DNA of 27,013 bases from a virus (Duplodnaviria > Caudoviricetes). The DNA lies in the IMG/VR virus record IMGVR_UViG_3300047386_000036, positions 1-27,013 of that record; one strand, written 5' to 3'. Positions 1 to 14,977 of this stretch are shown piece by piece (the stretch's first letter is position 1; each line of letters starts with the position of its first letter). The position numbers and the translations under genes were made by a program. The notes beneath the pieces were generated by a model. The model worked only from the letters and a program-made list of their open reading frames with translations. It did no database searches and was not told the DNA's origin.

Positions 1-2261
1 TCTTTTCCTGATAAATACAAATCTCCAGAGTTAACCATAGACTGTATAAAGAGGTGCGTTCCGTTTGTATATATTGCTCCGAACTCAACTCCATTATCTT
101 TTAATTTAACATCCCCGCCATCGACATCAATATTTAAATCGCCACCAATGTCAAAAGTAAGATTTCCTGCATCTGTAATACTTGACCCATTAATAGTTAT
201 ATCATCAACAGTAAGTACACCAAATGTGCCTGTACCAGAAGACGTTACACCTGCGTTGGCTGTTAGAACTCCAGATACATCAACACCGCCACTTCCTATA
301 GTCATTCTAGTAGCATCAGCAGTTTGTAATTCAAGATTAAATGCCGTATCAGACCCTGCTCTCACTACATTTATTTCTGCTACTTGGTCGCTTGTTGCAC
401 CTGTATCAGATGCAGAAAAATGTATAGAAGGACCAAAGCCATTAGCCATATCCCCCGAACTTGTAGCTTTTAAATCTAAAATTTGTAAAGATGCGTTAGT
501 TGTAGCATGAGTTCTAGTAAAACTAGAAGCTCCGTTTGTGACTGATAAATGACTTCCAACAGTCAAAGTGCTTGCCATATCAACAGCACCATCAATGTCC
601 ACAACATCAAGGTTAGTCGTGCCGTCTACGTCTATGTCACCTGAGATGTCTAAAGAAGCTACTGTAGCTGTACCTGTAAGCGTAGGAGCAGTAAGTGATT
701 TGTTTGTAAGAGTTTGTGAGCCTGTAAGTGTTGCTACTGTACTATCTATTGCAAGAGTAACTGCATTACCTGTTGCAGAACTATCAAGACCTGTACCGCC
801 TGATACAGTCAATGTTTCAGAATCTAAATCAATAGCAATCGTTCCGCTATCTGTTGTAATGTCTAAGTCTTCTGCGGTTATTTGAGTATCTACATAGGCT
901 TTAATGGACTGCTGAGAAGCAATACCTGTAGCACTATTAGAAGACATATCATCTTCATCAAGAAAAGCTTTACCGTCAAGTATGTTAAGTTCTGCGGCTG
1001 TACTTGTAACACCATCAAGAATATTAAGTTCTGCTGTTGTTACTGTAGCCCCATCAAGAATATTAAGTTCTGCGGCTGTTGATGTAGTTGCTAGTGTAAC
1101 TGCACCGCTAGAGACGTTAAAGTCATCTGAGTTAAATGATGCAATACCTTTGTTAGATGTTGTAGCATCTTCACCAGTAATTGTAAGAGTATTACTAGAT
1201 GCTGAAGTATCAATACCTTCACCACCTGTAACTGTTAATGTTTCGCCGTCTAAGTCAATTGCAATAGTACCACTATCTGATACTAGGTCTAGGTCTTGTG
1301 CAGTGTCTTGTGCGTCTACGTAAGCTTTTACGGACTGTTGTGTTGGAATAAGTGTTGCTGAGTTAGAAGCCATGTTGTCTTCATCAACAAAAGCTGTAAC
1401 TGTAATAGTACCATCTGTGATACTACCATATGTTAAAGTGTTAATAGTAGTAGCGTTAATTGTACCGCCTTCTACTTTATCACCAGAAATTTGATTGTCT
1501 GCTAGTGTTAGTGTACCTGCTGAAACATCTAAAGTTTTACCAGAGCCTACAGTAATATTAGCGGCATCTATCGTACCACCGTTAATGTCTGCTGTATCAG
1601 CTACAAGGCTATCAATGTTTGCAGTGCCGTCAATATATAAGTTTCTCCACTGCTGTGTAGAGCTACCTAGGTCATATGTATCATCATCATCAGGAATAAT
1701 ATTAGAGTCTACATCAGCACCAAATACAACATTGTCAGTAGCCGAATCACCCATAGTGATTGTTCCACCGTTAAATGTAGTTGTACCTGTTACTGTAAGA
1801 TTACCGCCAACACCTAAGTTACCAGAAATATCTGCGTTACCATTTATATCAATAGTTGTAGCGGCTATCTGGACTTCGGTATCGGCTACTATATCGAGTT
1901 GTCCATCAGTGCTAGAATTAATATAAATTGCTGTGTCTCTAAACTGTACCTTTTCTGTTGTTGTAAGTAATAGGTCATCTGAGAATTGGAAGTAATCTTC
2001 ATCTTCCATCCAACTTAAAACACCATCGTTAGAGTTAGCGTTAAAAGTAATTACAACATCGTTGTCTGTGTTAGTACCAAATACTAAAGAATTGCTAAAC
2101 AGATTTGAAATTGGTCCACCATCACCTGCGGTAGAACCATCATGAGTATGTCCTGTTGCTACGTTAAAAGCATTTACTAGTTGATTAAATTCGTTATTAA
2201 ATAGTGCCGCTGTAATTGTATCGCCATCACTAAACGAACTTTGTCTTACATAAGTAGCCAT
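1..2261 (-). CDS. Tail fibre/tail spike-like virion protein, truncated at the window edge (not in the ORF track)
   Basis: ATG at 2261 with GGAGAG RBS. My manual translation stays open to the window start (~753 aa: MATYVRQSSFSDGDTITAALFNNEFNQLVNAFNVATGHTHDG...). It is T/S/D/G-rich with internal repeats and lies directly after the tail tubular B gene. Confidence 0.85.
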   Translation of the reverse strand, partial: MATYVRQSSFSDGDTITAALFNNEFNQLVNAFNVATGHTHDGSTAGDGGPISNLFSNSLVFGTNTDNDVVITFNANSNDGVLSWMEDEDYFQFSDDLLLTTTEKVQFRDTAIYINSSTDGQLDIVADTEVQIAATTIDINGNADISGNLGVGGNLTVTGTTTFNGGTITMGDSATDNVVFGADVDSNIIPDDDDTYDLGSSTQQWRNLYIDGTANIDSLVADTADINGGTIDAANITVGSGKTLDVSAGTLTLADNQISGDKVEGGTINATTINTLTYGSITDGTITVTAFVDEDNMASNSATLIPTQQSVKAYVDAQDTAQDLDLVSDSGTIAIDLDGETLTVTGGEGIDTSASSNTLTITGEDATTSNKGIASFNSDDFNVSSGAVTLATTSTAAELNILDGATVTTAELNILDGVTSTAAELNILDGKAFLDEDDMSSNSATGIASQQSIKAYVDTQITAEDLDITTDSGTIAIDLDSETLTVSGGTGLDSSATGNAVTLAIDSTVATLTGSQTLTNKSLTAPTLTGTATVASLDISGDIDVDGTTNLDVVDIDGAVDMASTLTVGSHLSVTNGASSFTRTHATTNASLQILDLKATSSGDMANGFGPSIHFSASDTGATSDQVAEINVVRAGSDTAFNLELQTADATRMTIGSGGVDVSGVLTANAGVTSSGTGTFGVLTVDDITINGSSITDAGNLTFDIGGDLNIDVDGGDVKLKDNGVEFGAIYTNGTHLFIQSMVNSGDLYLSGK
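973..1089 (-). repeat. Three tandem 39-bp (13-aa) repeats, xTxTxAELNILDG, within the tail fibre
   Basis: ccrtcaag..t.ttaagttctgc recurs at 973, 1012 and 1051. Confidence 0.9.
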
Positions 2262-9838: not shown

Positions 9839-11476
9839 TTAATAACCAAAAGTTGAATCAGAAGGGCTAAATACATCTGATTTTATTCTTAACATCCTAT
9901 CTTGAGGATGGTCCATTCTTGGTCTACTCATAACCAAGTACCTTAACGCATCATATGCGTGGTCAGCCGCATGAGTGTCAACATCTTCAGGGTTAGACTT
10001 AGAAAGAGGCAAAGCCTGTATTTCTTTTATTAGATTGACACATGTATTAAATATCTGCAATCTGGGTCTTCCTGTACTGTTGTTCTTTCTCAAATGCTCA
10101 TGTATCTGAGTCTTACCTGCTAACCTATTCTTATCGGCTCGTCTTAGTTTATGTCCTTTATTAACTAATATTTCACCTATTGTTGGACCAGTATATCCTG
10201 TTCTTGACCAAGCGGCTGTATCTAATACACCTGCTATTGACCTAATCTCATCCTGTTCCATTTCTGTAATGGTATCTCCGAGTGCTTCACCTGTTAGACC
10301 CTTTCTGTATAGTTCTCTATATATTATGATGGTCTTATCTTCAGGGTCTATAACAGCCCAGAGACAACAACTTTCTGCGGCATAACCGTAGTCTACCGCT
10401 TTAACTCTTTCCCACCAACTTGGTAATTCAAATGGCGGTATAACATGTGTCTCTACTTCAAACTCTGCAAATGCCGCACCTTCTGAGATATCCCAGTTAC
10501 CTTCCAACAACTGTTTACGTTGTATGGCTGGTAAGGATTGCAACATCCTTTCATATTCACCGTCTTCAGCAAGGTGAGGATTATCCTGTAACAATGCTGG
10601 TATAAACTTTCTTGTGAGTCCGTCATGTCCTTGGAAACTTGTATTATGTTCCGCAGGTTCTACGTATCTCTTTTTAACCCAATGAGCACCTACACCTCCT
10701 GGGTTAGCTGTACATCTGAGATATGTCTTAATCTCTGGGTTAGTCGTTCTTAGTCGTGATGCTAAGTAGTTCCAACCAAACTCTGTAGGTAAATGAGTTA
10801 TCTCATCAAAACCTATCCAACTGTACGCTTGTCCTTGATAACGATAAACATCTGCATCTCGTTCCAAGAATCCAAATTCAATCTTTGCTCCACTAGGGAA
10901 CTGCCATAACTTTTCTACTTCTTTAAACTTAGCACCTTTAAATGCTATTGGATAAAGCTCACGAGACTTATCTATTAGTTCTCGTAGTTCTGGCATAGAC
11001 CTTCTTAATATTAAAGCTCTGTGTTCTGGAAAGTGACAGTATCGCAACGGGTCTATTAACATTGCAAAACTTTTACCACCACCTGCCGCACCACCGTAAA
11101 GAACATCCTTCTCACCTGCGGCAAGAAAGTCTGTCTGCGGTCCTTCGTTTGGCATGAAAGCCACATGAGAACCAGTGCTATCTAAATGTTGTTGTATAGT
11201 ATCAGGTAACTCTTTGGTTTCTGATTCTGTTAAAACATTAGATGTTAAAACTTTCTTTTCTTTGTTAAATTCTTTTTTAACTCTTGCTAAACTTCTTGTT
11301 AGCTTTTGAACTTTTTTATTCTTTTTTTGTAATTTATTCTTAGCCTGTAAAGCCAACTTCATATCAGAAAGTTCTGAATTTTTAGGTCTACCTGATTTTA
11401 ATCGGGGAGTACCATCTTTCTTTAGTATATAAGTCCCATCTGGATTTGTCAAGTACTTTTTTGATTTATCTACCAT
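9839..11476 (-). CDS. terL: Terminase large subunit with a basic N-terminal extension
   Basis: Walker A GGAAGGGKS, Walker B IGFDE, TANPGG coupling motif, nuclease residues DYG and DHAYDALRY. Confidence 0.95.
   Translation of the reverse strand: MVDKSKKYLTNPDGTYILKKDGTPRLKSGRPKNSELSDMKLALQAKNKLQKKNKKVQKLTRSLARVKKEFNKEKKVLTSNVLTESETKELPDTIQQHLDSTGSHVAFMPNEGPQTDFLAAGEKDVLYGGAAGGGKSFAMLIDPLRYCHFPEHRALILRRSMPELRELIDKSRELYPIAFKGAKFKEVEKLWQFPSGAKIEFGFLERDADVYRYQGQAYSWIGFDEITHLPTEFGWNYLASRLRTTNPEIKTYLRCTANPGGVGAHWVKKRYVEPAEHNTSFQGHDGLTRKFIPALLQDNPHLAEDGEYERMLQSLPAIQRKQLLEGNWDISEGAAFAEFEVETHVIPPFELPSWWERVKAVDYGYAAESCCLWAVIDPEDKTIIIYRELYRKGLTGEALGDTITEMEQDEIRSIAGVLDTAAWSRTGYTGPTIGEILVNKGHKLRRADKNRLAGKTQIHEHLRKNNSTGRPRLQIFNTCVNLIKEIQALPLSKSNPEDVDTHAADHAYDALRYLVMSRPRMDHPQDRMLRIKSDVFSPSDSTFGY
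11424..11452 (-). promoter_or_regulatory. Sigma70 promoter inside the 5' end of terL
   Basis: Minus strand TTGACA-17 nt-TATACT. Confidence 0.6.
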
Positions 11477-11711
11477 ATAGTTTATCTACGTGTTTTTTTA
11501 ATCCTGGTCTAGACATCTTACGTCCTGTTTCTGCTTCTAACCAGTCTACTCCAATACCCAGACTAATTTCCCCATGAAAGACTGCTTCAGATACTTCTTT
11601 AAGTACTTGTAACTCTTCATCTATAGGCTTTAAGAAAGAACCAGCTTCATTTTCTAGTTCGTATCCAAAAGGTATAGTAGAAGAAGTTCTGGTTATATAA
11701 CCCTCCTTCAT
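11466..11711 (-). CDS. Small putative DNA-binding protein resembling an isolated serine-recombinase 'recombinase' domain
   Basis: 81 aa with IPFGY...P..EE..L, then helix-W-L...TGR.MS..GL; no catalytic domain. Confidence 0.6.
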   Translation of the reverse strand: MKEGYITRTSSTIPFGYELENEAGSFLKPIDEELQVLKEVSEAVFHGEISLGIGVDWLEAETGRKMSRPGLKKHVDKLYGR

Positions 11712-11959
11712 TTTACTTTCCTATACTTCCTAACTTTTTTCGCTACTTTACTTGGTTGTTTGGAGTGTTGTTTTCCTTTGGCTGTATCTGCTCTTTTCTT
11801 TCTGGTTGTTTTGGCATACTCTGAAGATGAAAGTGCACTAATCGCCTTCTTCGGGAGATATCTCTCACCTGTCTCAGACGATTTCTTACCACTCTTGGTA
11901 GTCCATTTTTGCTTTGTCCAAGCTTTAAGACTTCTTTGCGGTTTTTTTAGGTTTGACAT
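11708..11959 (-). CDS. Lys-rich hypothetical protein (resembles the C-terminal half of DUF5872-like proteins)
   Basis: 83 aa with QRSLKAWTKQKW and GERYLPKKAI motifs. Confidence 0.7.
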   Translation of the reverse strand: MSNLKKPQRSLKAWTKQKWTTKSGKKSSETGERYLPKKAISALSSSEYAKTTRKKRADTAKGKQHSKQPSKVAKKVRKYRKVK

Positions 11960-12089
11960 TTTTTTTAGCCTTTGGTGTTTCCGTAGTTAAACATTTTTTA
12001 AATAGTTTTGCATATCCTTCTTTAACTGCGTTTATCCAGTTTGTTACATATAATTTACATTTATTGTAAATGTTTCTTATTTTATCCAT
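11925..12089 (-). CDS. Small Lys-rich hypothetical protein (54 aa)
   Basis: Manual translation MDKIRNIYNKCKLYVTNWINAVKEGYAKLFKKCLTTETPKAKKNVKPKKTAKKS. Its start overlaps the upstream stop (TGATG). Confidence 0.6.
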   Translation of the reverse strand: MDKIRNIYNKCKLYVTNWINAVKEGYAKLFKKCLTTETPKAKKNVKPKKTAKKS

Positions 12090-12283
12090 CATTTATAGCC
12101 ACCTCCAGCGGCTTTATATTCTTTTGCTAAAAGCTGGGCTTTTCGAGCAGACCATTGTCCAGCGTTGCCACCTTTAGTGCCACGCTTAATCTTCTCGAAA
12201 AGTCTCTTACGCATACTTGGCTTGGTATAGTTCCCAGCTTTGTTGACTGTAGATTTACTTTTTGTTTTCTTTTTTGCTGGCAT
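12089..12283 (-). CDS. Lys-rich hypothetical protein (resembles the N-terminal half of DUF5872-like proteins)
   Basis: ATG at 12283 after GGGAGG; motif YTKP..R...KGG.AGQWSARKAQLLAKEYK..GGGY. Confidence 0.75.
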   Translation of the reverse strand: MPAKKKTKSKSTVNKAGNYTKPSMRKRLFEKIKRGTKGGNAGQWSARKAQLLAKEYKAAGGGYK

Positions 12284-12431
12284 TTTCCCTCCCAAAAATT
12301 TTATCCCAGTTATCTCTATACTGTTTAGAATGTATATTTATTCTAGGTTTAGAACCTTTACCCCCACTACTGGTTTTGTAAATACTTCTACGCAACGGCA
12401 CAGCATTTTCATTACTACCTATTTGTGACAT
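12255..12431 (-). CDS. Small hypothetical phage protein (GKGSKPR...NWDKIF type, 58 aa)
   Basis: Manual translation MSQIGSNENAVPLRRSIYKTSSGGKGSKPRINIHSKQYRDNWDKIFGRENASKKENKK; starts 1 nt after the previous stop. Confidence 0.7.
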   Translation of the reverse strand: MSQIGSNENAVPLRRSIYKTSSGGKGSKPRINIHSKQYRDNWDKIFGRENASKKENKK

Positions 12432-12432
12432 T

Positions 12433-12723
12433 TTACCATTTTACCTTATCGGCCCAATATGCGGCTGACATTTTACCCTTTGCAATATTTTTAGCGTGTC
12501 TAGCTTTAAAAGACTTTCTTTTAGCTTTCATTCTAGCTGATTCTCCTGCTTTAGGAGCACCTGCTGTTTTAGCACCCTTCTGACCAAAACGTATTGTTTT
12601 AATCTTATCACCTTCTTTAGCCACTACAATGTGCGATTTTTTAGGATGACTAGGTGTTCGTTTAGGTTTGTTAAAGCCAGAGACTCCTGCTCTTTTTAAC
12701 CTACTATCTTTTTCTTTTGGCAT
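12433..12723 (-). CDS. Lys-rich hypothetical protein (IRFGQ...RKSFKARH...SAAYW type)
   Basis: 96 aa, very basic, coupled to TerS by TAATG. Confidence 0.8.
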   Translation of the reverse strand: MPKEKDSRLKRAGVSGFNKPKRTPSHPKKSHIVVAKEGDKIKTIRFGQKGAKTAGAPKAGESARMKAKRKSFKARHAKNIAKGKMSAAYWADKVKW

Positions 12724-13163
12724 TAGTTTTCTATCTCCTGATACGTAGCATCTTCAGCCTCAATAACTACCGGAGTTTTATCGGGCATTAAAAAGATACC
12801 TCCACTATTCATATTATGATTAACATCTATTTTATCTACTTTACTGACTCCTACCCTATCTAGTAAAGTCTGTGCGGCTGTTAGCTTATTAGCGGCTTGC
12901 ACTACAGGCTTTTTAGATTCCATAATTTCAACAACTTTAAAGGCGGCTTTTGGGGCAGAGTTAGCTAGTATCTCTTGAGTAAGTTCTAGTATCTCAGACT
13001 TTAAAGTTTTTACAACATGATGATAATGACTAGAATAACCAGCAAGCTCTGCGGCTTTCTTTGCATCACCTTGAGTATCTACAAGATGATTAAGGAAAGA
13101 CTGTTGCTTTTCAGTCAGTTCTCTTTTTGTTATTGTTTTATCAACACTTGGTAAAATAGCCAT
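12723..13163 (-). CDS. terS: Terminase small subunit
   Basis: 146 aa with the LTEKQQSFL...AKKAAELAGYS HTH and AAQTLLDRVG; first gene of the packaging arm. Confidence 0.8.
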   Translation of the reverse strand: MAILPSVDKTITKRELTEKQQSFLNHLVDTQGDAKKAAELAGYSSHYHHVVKTLKSEILELTQEILANSAPKAAFKVVEIMESKKPVVQAANKLTAAQTLLDRVGVSKVDKIDVNHNMNSGGIFLMPDKTPVVIEAEDATYQEIEN

Positions 13164-13169
13164 GAATCT

Positions 13170-13198
13170 AGTATACAGTTCTATTTTAAGATTGTCAA
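13170..13198 (-). promoter_or_regulatory. Sigma70 promoter for the packaging/structural arm
   Basis: Minus strand TTGACA-17 nt-TATACT, 6 nt before the terS ATG. Confidence 0.85.
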
Positions 13199-13212: not shown

Positions 13213-13241
13213 TTGACAAAATACGATTTCATTGCTATAAT
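13213..13241 (+). promoter_or_regulatory. Consensus sigma70 promoter with extended -10, pointing into non-coding DNA
   Basis: TTGACA-17 nt-TATAAT preceded by TGC. Confidence 0.85.
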
Positions 13242-14052
13242 AATATTGTGCCCCCGAGGGTCAATATAGACAATATCTTGTCGTCATTCTGATAAAACAA
13301 TCACCTAAAATAAATACTTCCTAGTCTCTTAAACTTTAAAGGTTTTAGTGTCGGGGCGTTAACTAGTTCTGGTTAATGGGCTGTGCGCTATAAAATGTAT
13401 AACCATGCTATAGATATATAGGGTAGGGGGAGTGGGCTCCTGCCACCCCTTGAGTAAACTGAGAGAGGTGGTTCTAGTAGACCTCAAAGCCACTCCAAAC
13501 TCAATAACTTGGAAGACTTCAAGGCTATTCTCTTACAAGCACAACACTATCTTTCTTTCTATAAAGTTTTAAACTTGAATAGTCACATGAAGTCTTTCAA
13601 GTCAATCTCTTTTCTAAGTCTATACCTTTTAGAACCTATTGAAATCTCCTTTATTCTAACATATCTTCTGGTCTTTAGCAAGCTTAAAATCTAACATTAC
13701 TTAAAAGATACAGTTATATCTTTCTACGCTAAAGGCGTATCTCATGCACCTTCTACGATTTATCTCCCAATCTTCATAAATCATTGAACACACAGCACTG
13801 TAAAGCCTTCCAAGCCCTTAAAGTCAAACACCTCGTGGCTATCTAATGTCTCCAACACTCCACTCCCACTAACGATTAAATCTCAAGCTACCCACTCAAC
13901 TATTGAAACCTAGAAAACTTGCTAAGTTTCCGTTGTTCGCGTAACCAGCACCACCATTTTCTCCTAACAATTTCTAGTTTACAGGAACATAAAGATTTTA
14001 AAGTATATAAATGTAAAGGATAATACCCTTTGGGCTTCACTACGTTCAGTCC

Positions 14053-14081
14053 TTTACACTTTAAAATCTTTATGTTTTAAT
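14053..14081 (+). promoter_or_regulatory. Putative promoter of the two-gene unit inside the inverted repeat
   Basis: TTTACA-17 nt-TTTAAT with extended TGn. The -10 lacks the conserved A at position 2. Confidence 0.45.
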
Positions 14082-14109
14082 CCTGTAAAGAAATTATAAG
14101 GAGAAAATA

Positions 14110-14301
14110 ATGATACTAATTACTTATGCGAACAACGAAACCTTAGAGTTTTCTACAGTTTCAACAGCCGAGATGTGCACCTTGAGTTTACTCGTAAGTG
14201 GCATCGAAGCGTTGGGAATTAGATGCAACGATGCGTCTGACCTTAACCGCTTGCAAGACTACATTGCTGGCATTCAACAATCCATAAATCTTAGGAGATA
14301 A
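14110..14301 (+). CDS. Hypothetical early protein (63 aa)
   Basis: AAGGAG RBS; lies in the right arm of the inverted repeat. Confidence 0.7.
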   Translation: MILITYANNETLEFSTVSTAEMCTLSLLVSGIEALGIRCNDASDLNRLQDYIAGIQQSINLRR

Positions 14302-14304
14302 ATC

Positions 14305-14580
14305 GTGGAAAATACATTCGATATAAACGCCTTTAGCGTAGAAAGACATAAAAGCCCTGCATCTTACAAACAATGTCAGGCTTTAAGCTATAAGTTTGCT
14401 AAAGACCAGAAAACAGGGAAAATAAATTGGAGATTTCAAAAGCAGGTTCTCGGTTGTTTGTTCGGTTTAGCTTCAGAAAAGAGATTGACTTTCAAGAAAG
14501 CTAATGATTTATTCAAGTCTAAAACTTTACCAAAACCTTATATGGATAAGATAGCGTTGTACTTGAAAGAAAATAGCTAA
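14305..14580 (+). CDS. Basic hypothetical early protein (91 aa)
   Basis: AGGAG RBS, GTG start, followed by a terminator. Confidence 0.75.
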   Translation: MENTFDINAFSVERHKSPASYKQCQALSYKFAKDQKTGKINWRFQKQVLGCLFGLASEKRLTFKKANDLFKSKTLPKPYMDKIALYLKENS

Positions 14581-14584
14581 CCCT

Positions 14585-14619
14585 AAAGCCTCCAAGCTAC
14601 TGAGTTTGGAGGTTTTTTT
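14585..14619 (+). terminator. Rho-independent terminator
   Basis: GCCTCCAAGCT-ACTG-AGTTTGGAGGT followed by a T-run. Confidence 0.85.
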
Positions 14620-14745
14620 ATGCCTATCTATCACTTAAATTCAGTTTACTTTATAATGATGAGTGCTATTTATATGGGGTTTTAGTCGCCCACTCCAAAG
14701 AAGTTAATTAAACTTAATTAAGTAATTTAAGACTCGAGCTTACGG

Positions 14746-14794
14746 TTGGTCGGTTGGTTGAGGGACGTTTTTAAATTGGTCGGTTGGTTGAGGG
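14746..14794 (+). repeat. Two perfect 19-bp direct repeats TTGGTCGGTTGGTTGAGGG
   Basis: At 14746-14764 and 14776-14794 (30-bp period), followed by a very AT-rich tract. Confidence 0.9.
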
Positions 14795-14910
14795 CGTATT
14801 TAAGTTAAAATACAGGACAAATGTGCTAATTTAAGTTAAAAAATGTAATTTATTTACAAAAAAGTTTGTATTTATTTTAATATTATGTTAAATTATTAAG
14901 TTTTTTTTAG

Positions 14911-14977
14911 TTTTAATATTATAAATATATCTTAAATTAGTTAAATGCTTGACAACTTTGTCGGCTTCGGGCACCAT
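14911..14977 (+). promoter_or_regulatory. Early sigma70 promoter with a duplicated upstream element
   Basis: TTGACA (14949)-17 nt-CACCAT. The upstream TTATAAATATATCTTAA...AAATGCTTGACA is shared with the 16273-16340 promoter. Confidence 0.6.

What the first reader, a model, noticed from the sequence alone, without database searches (positions are those of the whole stretch)
13429..14696. ~1.27-kb strand-asymmetric fold-back: a non-coding mirror of an entire two-gene transcription unit
Seen: the apparently intergenic 13429-14020 is a collinear, degenerate reverse complement of 14050-14696. That right arm holds a candidate promoter, two RBS-led ORFs (14110-14301, 14305-14580) and their terminator. 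The mirror has indels and lacks intact copies of the ORFs. By eye, most substitutions in the left arm (read on minus) relative to the right arm (plus) are A>G or C>T. Examples: aaaataatgatactaatt > aaaatggtggtgctggtt; caacagccgag > caatagttgag; gaaaatac > gaaggtgc; aaacaatgtcag > aagtaatgttag; tagcgttgtact > tagtgttgtgct. These give G.T/G.U wobbles when the MINUS strand folds, but A.C mismatches when the plus strand (the mRNA) folds. Inference: neutral decay of a duplication should not be this directional, so a ~570-bp hairpin of the template strand appears selected while the mRNA stays open. One hypothesis: near the genome end, a single-stranded 3' minus tail (from entry, resection or strand displacement) folds back. 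This could rebuild a transcribable duplex mini-operon, protect the end or self-prime. It would be analogous to, but much larger than, Frpo/ssi single-strand promoters of conjugative plasmids. An alternative is a long structured antisense RNA. I know of no described equivalent in podophages.
Basis: partly seen in the sequence, partly recalled or inferred. Interest (0 to 1): 0.93.

Follow-up and report, generated by a model that had tools for sequence, protein, structure and literature searches.

The report
Phage end mirrors its first genes
A family of marine viruses of bacteria keeps, right beside what is likely the end of its genome, a non-coding backward copy of its first two genes that changes letter by letter along with them, likely so that one DNA strand can fold back into a long double helix and keep those genes readable and protected when the end is single-stranded.

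Summary
Confirmed and extended. Window 13429-14020 is an 80%-identical, gap-rich reverse complement of 14050-14696 (two ORFs and a terminator) in an HTVC103P/HMO-2011-related marine podophage. It is not an assembly artefact. The mirror occurs in 65 of 67 ORF2-bearing loci. In 30 of 30 lineages it fits its own genes best, with 183 double changes against about 43 expected. Selection acts on the minus (template) strand fold: sheared tandem G.A at 20 sites against 1 on plus. Mismatch contexts fit DNA energies better than RNA. Contig ends suggest the left arm is the ~0.6-kb direct terminal repeat, so the fold-back would be the first 1.3 kb of the genome. Relatives with other genes in this slot mirror those genes instead, often only the leader, RBS and start. 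Best reading: a single-stranded 3' end snaps back into a DNA rod that keeps the first genes transcribable and shielded; this function is untested. Four look-ups in the scan's notes found no earlier report of this element.

The parts
12723..13163 (-). terminase small subunit; start of the late (structural) arm
   Evidence: PHROG 51/2538, E about 1e-5; 54% identical to HTVC103P terS
13170..13198 (-). sigma70-type promoter for terS (11/12)
   Evidence: conserved in the alignment
13213..13241 (+). perfect sigma70-type promoter (12/12) firing toward the terminal motif and the mirror
   Evidence: conserved in 20 IMG/VR relatives, L069 and cultured HTVC115P/HTVC103P
13359..13376 (.). short inverted pair TTAACTAG..CTGGTTAA; the second half starts about 41 nt before the inferred left end; likely a terminase-related site (inferred)
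13410..13444 (+). conserved TATA/G-rich motif at the inferred left genome terminus (about 13408-13415)
   Evidence: 7 contigs of relatives start 4-37 nt before the motif; an X4 unitig starts at 13410
13429..14020 (-). left arm: non-coding degenerate mirror of the two-gene unit; inferred to coincide with the direct terminal repeat (about 13410-14015)
   Evidence: 621-nt terminal redundancy in the contig of L079/L104; no shared ORF seen in the lineages visible in the cut output; stop-free stretches 44-103 aa
13974..13983 (+). second CTAGTTTACA motif, kept in the left arm whether or not it pairs; about 41 nt before the inferred right boundary of the terminal repeat
14021..14049 (.). apical loop of the fold-back
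14050..14696 (+). right arm: leader with a -35-like hexamer and variable -10, ORF1, ORF2, terminator and closing stem
14110..14301 (+). ORF1, 63 aa, no known family; four-fold sites unusually conserved
   Evidence: four-fold divergence 15/161 vs 126/494 in terS
14305..14580 (+). ORF2, 91 aa, basic all-alpha protein of no known family
14586..14619 (+). intrinsic-terminator-like hairpin with T run
   Evidence: sequence; conserved; not called by the scan
14678..14696 (.). closing stem that pairs with the terminal motif 13429-13449; predicted 3' flap of 19 nt from 13410
14700..14945 (.). AT-rich, repeat-containing origin-like region (19-nt repeat at 14746 and 14776; DnaA-box-like motifs in many relatives); origin role inferred
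14949..14977 (+). promoter-like site (TTGACA-17-CACCAT) of the main early operon
   Evidence: sequence; alignment

Best explanation
The non-coding left arm is a co-evolving, bulge-interrupted inverted copy of the adjacent two-gene unit, likely forming the phage's ~0.6-kb direct terminal repeat, so that when the left end likely becomes a single-stranded 3' tail of the minus (template) strand it would snap back into a ~570-bp DNA rod that would keep the first genes transcribable and the end shielded. Steps: (1) Shown: mirror, covariation and strand-specific pairing signatures. (2) Inferred from energy fits (about 0.7): the folding molecule is DNA. (3) Inferred from contig ends (about 0.8 for a terminus here, about 0.65 for left arm = terminal repeat): the minus strand's 3' end lies about 19 nt outside the closing stem. 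(4) Inferred: 5'-to-3' resection by a host or phage exonuclease, or unwinding from the adjacent origin-like region, exposes this strand. The mirror then serves as a stand-in non-template strand, in the way Frpo does for plasmids but over a whole operon. (5) Inferred: the 15-25% mismatch and frequent bulges keep the duplex genome stable and let the perfectly matching right-end repeat displace the rod when the ends anneal. Late read-through from the promoter at 13213 would silence the same genes as a side effect.
For: Mirror in 65 of 67 ORF2-bearing loci with enough upstream DNA, down to 31% amino-acid identity. Own right arm is the best partner in 30 of 30 lineages. In 10 disjoint pairs, 183 of 281 right-arm changes have a partner change (about 43 expected), 143 of them restoring Watson-Crick pairs, mostly scattered. 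Single changes favour minus-strand G.T 158:29. G is enriched at mismatched left-arm positions (0.33) but not at bulged ones (0.16), and neutral four-fold sites have G/(A+G) 0.11-0.14. Sheared-orientation GA/AG tandems occur at 20 distinct sites on minus vs 2 in the other orientation and 1 on plus; TG/GT 19 vs GT/TG 2. Minus is more stable in 29 of 30 lineages with DNA energies and 27 of 30 with RNA. Mismatch context fit gains 18.6 log-likelihood with DNA vs 2.5 with RNA parameters; YGAR context at 12 of 20 sites vs 0.32 background, p=0.009. Terminus. The mirror tracks whichever genes fill the slot. An exonuclease and a gp2.5-like SSB/annealing protein are encoded.
Against: No experiment or raw-read evidence shows single-strandedness, transcription or the termini. 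No consistent sigma70 promoter is made by the fold: best scores are 6-10 of 12 at varying positions on both arms. Lineages are not independent, so p-values and likelihood gains are inflated. Contig starts near the motif could come from assembly breaks at a shared conserved stretch (X1 and X2 break at 13350-13389). Only one mirror-bearing contig shows the 621-nt redundancy. PhageTerm called the more distant phiM6 pac/headful, with its fixed end about 20 nt past a similar motif and the genome numbered toward terS. L068/L069 carry a flipped ORF2 with no mirror, and several terS-close relatives score at background, so the rod is not needed for replication or packaging in the family. Exonuclease polarity is unknown.
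Confidence: 0.5

Rival explanations
1. Same minus-strand DNA rod, but its main job is replication or repair: the closing stem places the genome's 3' end at 14696, next to the origin-like region, where it would self-prime rightward synthesis after a 19-nt flap is trimmed (parvovirus-like snap-back).
For: The closing stem is predicted in the DNA fold and matched the pattern in 15 of the 24 long-mirror lineages with IR score above 300. An AT-rich region with repeats and DnaA-box-like motifs follows directly, and cumulative GC skew turns near 14000-14500.
Against: Short-mirror relatives pair only the leader, RBS and start and show no closing-stem match. The hairpin-primed product would carry the degenerate arm in place of the genes and would need recombination to give normal ends (inference). 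L069 keeps an inverted terminal-motif pair without a mirror.
Confidence: 0.17
2. Antisense timer: the conserved promoter at 13213 sits outside the terminal repeat, so only the late-entering right end or concatemers transcribe the left arm. The resulting antisense or hairpin RNA shuts off ORF1/2.
For: The promoter is perfect and universally conserved and points into the mirror. Read-through RNA is predicted to bury both RBS. The minimal mirror always covers the RBS and start codon.
Against: This duplex has plus-strand geometry, yet plus-strand G.U is depleted (29 vs 158) and tandem motifs favour minus. The promoter is also present in phages without a mirror.
Confidence: 0.15
3. A minus-sense, rod-shaped non-coding RNA of about 1.3 kb, transcribed leftward across both arms, is the functional molecule (decoy or scaffold).
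For: All minus-strand pairing signatures also stabilise RNA; minus is more stable as RNA in 27 of 30 lineages. The bulged rod resembles viroid-like RNAs (recalled).
Against: No leftward promoter to the right of the arms in the scan or in the alignment. Non-wobble mismatch contexts take the wrong sign under RNA parameters. No Rfam family.
Confidence: 0.1
4. Neutral inverted duplication kept similar by template-switch (quasi-palindrome) conversion, with strand-biased mutation producing the asymmetry.
For: Template switching is known to homogenise imperfect inverted repeats (abstract starts of PMC7202029 and PMC3820800). GC skew flips here, and some unmirrored terminal stretches are C-rich on plus.
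Against: No perfect run exceeds 26 nt in 30 lineages. Compensated sites are mostly scattered and the tandem mismatches are orientation-specific. Bulged bases lack the G bias. Mirror ends track the transcription unit across 31-75% protein identity. ORF1 synonymous sites are constrained.
Confidence: 0.05

Closest known systems
Frpo/ssi single-strand promoters of conjugative plasmids (PMC11541004, passages read)
   Same: Imperfect fold-back of entering single-stranded DNA that mimics a duplex upstream of first-expressed genes, on the template strand.
   Different: Frpo is a promoter-sized element in DNA known to enter single-stranded. Here the mirror covers up to a whole operon and terminator (about 570 bp) in a tailed dsDNA phage, and no fold-made -35/-10 pair was found.
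Phage N4 virion-RNAP hairpin promoters (PMC4496689, passages read)
   Same: Template-strand hairpin favoured over the non-template one; a sheared G:A pair contributes.
   Different: N4 hairpins have stems of about 7 bp, are extruded by supercoiling and are read by a phage-encoded polymerase. None of these features was seen here; the window is a partial genome.
T5 first-step-transfer region and iss (bioRxiv 866236, first of six parts read)
   Same: Terminal-repeat region with first-expressed small genes, then non-coding repeats, inverted repeats and DnaA boxes.
   Different: No mirror of genes is described in the part read; the T5 repeat is 10 kb and carries A1/A2, which have no detected counterpart here.
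Terminal snap-back hairpins of parvoviruses and the T7 concatemer M-hairpin (recalled, not checked in a paper)
   Same: A 3' end folding back to prime or protect.
   Different: Those are short, near-perfect palindromes and do not copy coding genes.
HTVC103P-type pelagiphages / HMO-2011-related podophages (10.1101/2019.12.14.876532, passages read)
   Same: terL 65% and terS 52-54% identical, same gene order at the junction, same back-to-back promoters.
   Different: The cultured members have no ORF2 and no long mirror in the junction stretches examined.

Membership tests
Frpo/ssi single-strand promoters | Imperfect inverted repeat that folds on the template strand upstream of first-expressed genes | tested here: met
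   (predicted fold plus covariation)
Frpo/ssi single-strand promoters | Near-consensus -35 and -10 hexamers presented by the fold | tested here: not met
   best sites score 6-10 of 12 at inconsistent positions; one search shows a conserved -35-like hexamer but a variable -10
Frpo/ssi single-strand promoters | Located in the leading region of a conjugative element that is transferred as ssDNA | tested here: not met
   phage packaging and replication genes flank it
Frpo/ssi single-strand promoters | Transcription by host RNA polymerase from ssDNA | not testable with these tools
   needs in vitro transcription
N4-type hairpin promoter | Short stem with a 3-nt loop read by a virion RNA polymerase | tested here: inconclusive
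   the rod is about 570 bp; no RNA polymerase among the window proteins scanned, but the window is about half a genome
Short direct-terminal-repeat (T7-like) packaging | Fixed ends with an exact terminal repeat | tested here: inconclusive
   621- and 248-nt redundancies in two contigs and clustered starts; no raw reads; phiM6 was called pac
cis-antisense / type I antitoxin RNA | Antisense RNA whose duplex with the mRNA is the selected structure | tested here: not met
   plus-strand wobble depleted 29:158; tandem motifs favour minus
Known structured RNA families (Rfam) | Match above the gathering score | tested here: not met
   3 weak hits, all far below threshold
HTVC103P-type / HMO-2011-related podophages | HMO-2011-like packaging module with T7-like PolA, primase-helicase and SSB | tested here: met
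   host unknown and no whole-genome classification done

The most novel reading that the evidence does not exclude
A tailed double-stranded DNA phage whose terminal repeat has evolved into a spare, non-coding complementary strand for its first operon. The genome end goes through a programmed single-stranded stage, snaps back into an operon-length DNA rod that is transcribed and resists end-directed host nucleases, and is released when the far end arrives. The mirror is re-tailored to whatever genes occupy the slot.
Probability: 0.4. Interest if true: 0.93.

Novelty: categorically new. Interest (0 to 1): 0.86.

Why it matters
Tailed phages are thought to act as duplex DNA at entry. An operon-length fold-back under selection on one DNA strand implies a regular single-stranded stage at the genome end in a lineage related to one of the most abundant marine phage groups. 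It would extend the plasmid Frpo principle to phages at gene scale and give terminal repeats a new role. It also flags two unknown small proteins as candidates for first-acting host-takeover or anti-defence factors. The covariation signal gives a simple genome-scan test for similar mirrors, and each step can be tested with synthetic DNA.

Tried and rejected
Assembly artefact: rejected. Function of ORF1/ORF2: no PHROG or Pfam family, no Atlas hit, no Foldseek match at E<=0.001, best VIA Z 4.5 (not meaningful). The 63 profile hits are unnamed, and 10 of the most distant or longest gave only weak or unrelated matches. RNA-labelled runs X19, X20, X23, X24 hold mostly relatives' pieces as unstranded contigs and are uninformative. 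Unitig depths in X1-X4 cannot show a doubled repeat. A fold-made bubble promoter was considered but not supported. A cap on helix length: observed maxima are below random expectation in 24 of 30 lineages (mean 18.2 vs 21.4), but individually clear in only 5, so it is weak. Clustering of contig ends 3.2-3.9 kb upstream falls in the conserved terL ATPase region and was read as assembly breakage. No long inverted repeat in junction stretches of HTVC115P, HTVC103P, HTVC104P (record end only), HMO-2011, MW202701 or phiM6; best score 87. The second genes of short-mirror relatives were not scanned against family libraries, so their relation to ORF2 is open. The p-value for contig starts used hand-entered counts (7 and 17; the list gives 16 far ends) and a uniform span although flanks differed, so it is rough. 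Literature searches found no description of this element; subscription papers are mostly outside the library, and no supplements were read.

Full report
Observation. The reverse complement of 13429-14020 aligns with 14050-14696 at 453 of 567 pairs (score 523; 200 shuffles reach at most 104.5). A>G outnumbers G>A 25:4 and C>T outnumbers T>C 29:8 (p=1.7e-7). The minus strand folds more stably than the plus strand: -632 vs -457 kcal/mol as RNA and -314 vs -257 as DNA. It is the only long inverted repeat in the window. Unitigs of three runs cross the loop without differences listed (X1 and X2 may be the source). Wobble-type changes are 47% of substitutions, and the plus strand still forms 448 mirror pairs.

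Context. The window is part of a marine podophage. Its terL is 65% identical and its terS 52-54% identical to cultured HTVC103P-type pelagiphages (paper passages). It encodes PolA, primase-helicase, a gp2.5-like SSB, an exonuclease and endonuclease I. The host is unknown. The element sits where the late arm (minus) and the early arm (plus) diverge. Back-to-back sigma70-type promoters at 13170-13198 (-) and 13213-13241 (+, 12/12) are conserved in 20 IMG/VR relatives, L069 and two cultured phages. To the right lies an AT-rich, repeat-bearing region with DnaA-box-like motifs in many relatives, followed by the main early promoter (the DnaA consensus is recalled).

Conservation and co-evolution. 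Of 68 loci encoding an ORF2 relative, one has too little upstream DNA. Of the other 67, 65 carry the mirror, down to 31% protein identity. The two exceptions (L068, L069, one phage type) have ORF2 flipped and lack ORF1. After dereplication to 30 lineages (29 of the 60 usable loci plus the window), each left arm fits its own right arm better than any other (30 of 30). In 10 disjoint pairs, 183 of 281 right-arm changes are matched by a change at the mirror site (about 43 expected), and 143 restore Watson-Crick pairing at mostly scattered positions (15 overlapping pairs give 302 and 228). Arms stay 75-88% identical with 20-50 gaps, and no perfect run exceeds 26 nt. Four-fold sites in ORF1 differ at 15 of 161 positions vs 126 of 494 in terS; ORF2 (58 of 216) is not reduced. 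Relatives with other genes in the slot mirror those genes: in full in L189 and L201, or only 80-270 nt around the leader, RBS and start in 8 of 14 loci examined. L085 and L094 have a local repeat nearer the terminus, L096 has a long mirror cut by its contig end, and L119, L139 and L144 are at or near background.

Which strand. The gross wobble excess is significant in 12 of 30 lineages and never significant in the other direction; 5 lean slightly to plus. Finer tests point to minus. Single changes give minus-strand G.T 158 times vs 29 for plus. G is enriched at mismatched left-arm positions (0.33) but not at bulged ones (0.16), while neutral sites are G-poor. Tandem 5'-GA/AG in the sheared orientation occurs at 20 distinct sites vs 2 in the opposite orientation and 1 on plus, and TG/GT at 19 vs 2 for GT/TG. 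A simple strand bias in mutation is unlikely to give orientation-specific double transversions. The aligned structure is more stable on minus in 29 of 30 (DNA) and 27 of 30 (RNA) lineages. Short-mirror relatives show no consistent wobble bias.

DNA or RNA. G.A mismatches outnumber C.T by 1.5-1.9-fold within the same mutation class, as DNA but not RNA parameters predict. A context model gains 18.6 log-likelihood with DNA energies and 2.5 with RNA energies, which take the wrong sign for non-wobble mismatches; for wobble pairs alone the two fit about equally. Sheared tandems sit in YGAR context at 12 of 20 sites vs 0.32 background (p=0.009); that this context is the DNA-preferred one is recalled. 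Lineages are related, so these figures overstate certainty. No leftward promoter that could make a minus-sense RNA was found.

Terminus. A G-rich motif at the base of the left arm is shared family-wide. Among 131 motif loci passing a TATA filter, 5 contigs start within 40 nt before it and 16 start further away. Two more (L104, L305) were dropped by the filter because the contig cuts the TATA, which gives 7 near starts. In the window's own lineage an X4 unitig starts at 13410. One 51,452-nt mirror-bearing contig has a 621-nt terminal redundancy running from -13 to +607 relative to the motif, while its left arm spans +17 to +624; a mirror-less relative has 248 nt. Both boundaries of the 621-nt repeat lie 41-46 nt after a C(T/A)(A/G)GTT(T/A)A motif, which the window has at 13369 and 13974 (distance counted by eye), so a repeat of about 13410-14015 is predicted. 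Caveats: breaks at a conserved shared stretch could also cluster contig starts. The 248-nt case does not end at that distance from such a motif. PhageTerm called phiM6 (terL 46%) pac-type, with its fixed end about 20 nt past a similar motif (paper passages).

Mechanism. At a left end the minus strand carries the 3' terminus and is the template of ORF1/2. 5'-to-3' resection or unwinding from the adjacent origin-like region would expose it (inference from established phage biology). The DNA fold pairs it to within 19 nt of 13410. I judge it most likely (0.5) that the rod supplies a stand-in non-template strand so the first genes remain transcribable and the end is not left as free single-stranded DNA. 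Imperfection would keep the duplex genome stable and allow displacement by the exact right-end repeat. The minimal mirror over leader and RBS fits this. The absence of a fold-made promoter and the existence of mirror-less relatives count against it. Rivals are self-priming next to the origin (0.17), an antisense timer from the 13213 promoter (0.15; read-through RNA buries both RBS, but the selected geometry is the wrong strand), a minus-sense rod RNA (0.1) and neutral conversion (0.05).

Proteins. ORF2 gives a confident all-alpha model (pLDDT 85.5) with no informative structural or family match. ORF1 has 5 homologues and no family. Their function is open.

Comparison and novelty. It works most like Frpo single-strand promoters (PMC11541004, passages) and recalls the N4 template-strand hairpin (PMC4496689, passages) and the T5 first-step region (bioRxiv 866236, part 1 of 6), but it fails membership in each. 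PMC13037366 (passages) supports only the stability of sheared G-A pairs in DNA mini-hairpins. Ten literature searches and four look-ups in the scan's notes found no description of a gene-mirroring terminal repeat in a tailed phage; the library lacks most subscription papers. Verdict: a real, selected, undescribed architecture whose function is inferred. Interest 0.86.

Noticed in passing
L068/L069, around 3680-4710 of L069: ORF2 homologue flipped and alone, without a mirror, yet flanked by an inverted pair of the terminal motif 969 nt apart; possibly an inverted or ancestral state of the cassette.
   Followed up: partly
window 13213-13262 and HTVC115P record end (L063): The outward-facing promoter is followed by a conserved CCCCC.GGGTC motif; in HTVC115P a terminator-like hairpin follows about 90 nt later, suggesting a small RNA or a packaging-linked transcript.
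   Followed up: no
paired arms of 30 lineages: C>T mismatches are strongly enriched where C precedes G (42 mismatches against 44 Watson-Crick sites, far above other contexts); this could reflect thermodynamics, methylation or site avoidance.
   Followed up: no
window 14700-14945; L015, L016, L020, L022, L025, L031, L046: Origin-like region with TTGAGGG-containing repeats and several DnaA-box-like motifs in many relatives, reminiscent of the T5 iss region.
   Followed up: partly
L075, L089, L095, L099, L105, L122, L128, L151 (about 400-1100 nt after the terminal motif): The first-gene slot holds several different small-gene pairs (about 60 aa plus 114-141 aa), each with its own short mirror; some second genes show by eye a motif like ORF2's N-terminal helix.
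   Followed up: partly
window 11466-12723 (-): Run of tiny K/R-rich ORFs between terS and terL; an earlier scan note on another genome describes such a cassette.
   Followed up: no
window 757-1398: 216-nt direct repeat and three 39-nt repeats in the minus-strand gene at the window's left edge, probably a tail-fibre repeat.
   Followed up: no
L064 (HTVC115P 185-348) and L066 (HTVC103P record end): Short imperfect inverted repeats of 60-100 nt near the junction of cultured pelagiphages; they do not mirror genes.
   Followed up: partly
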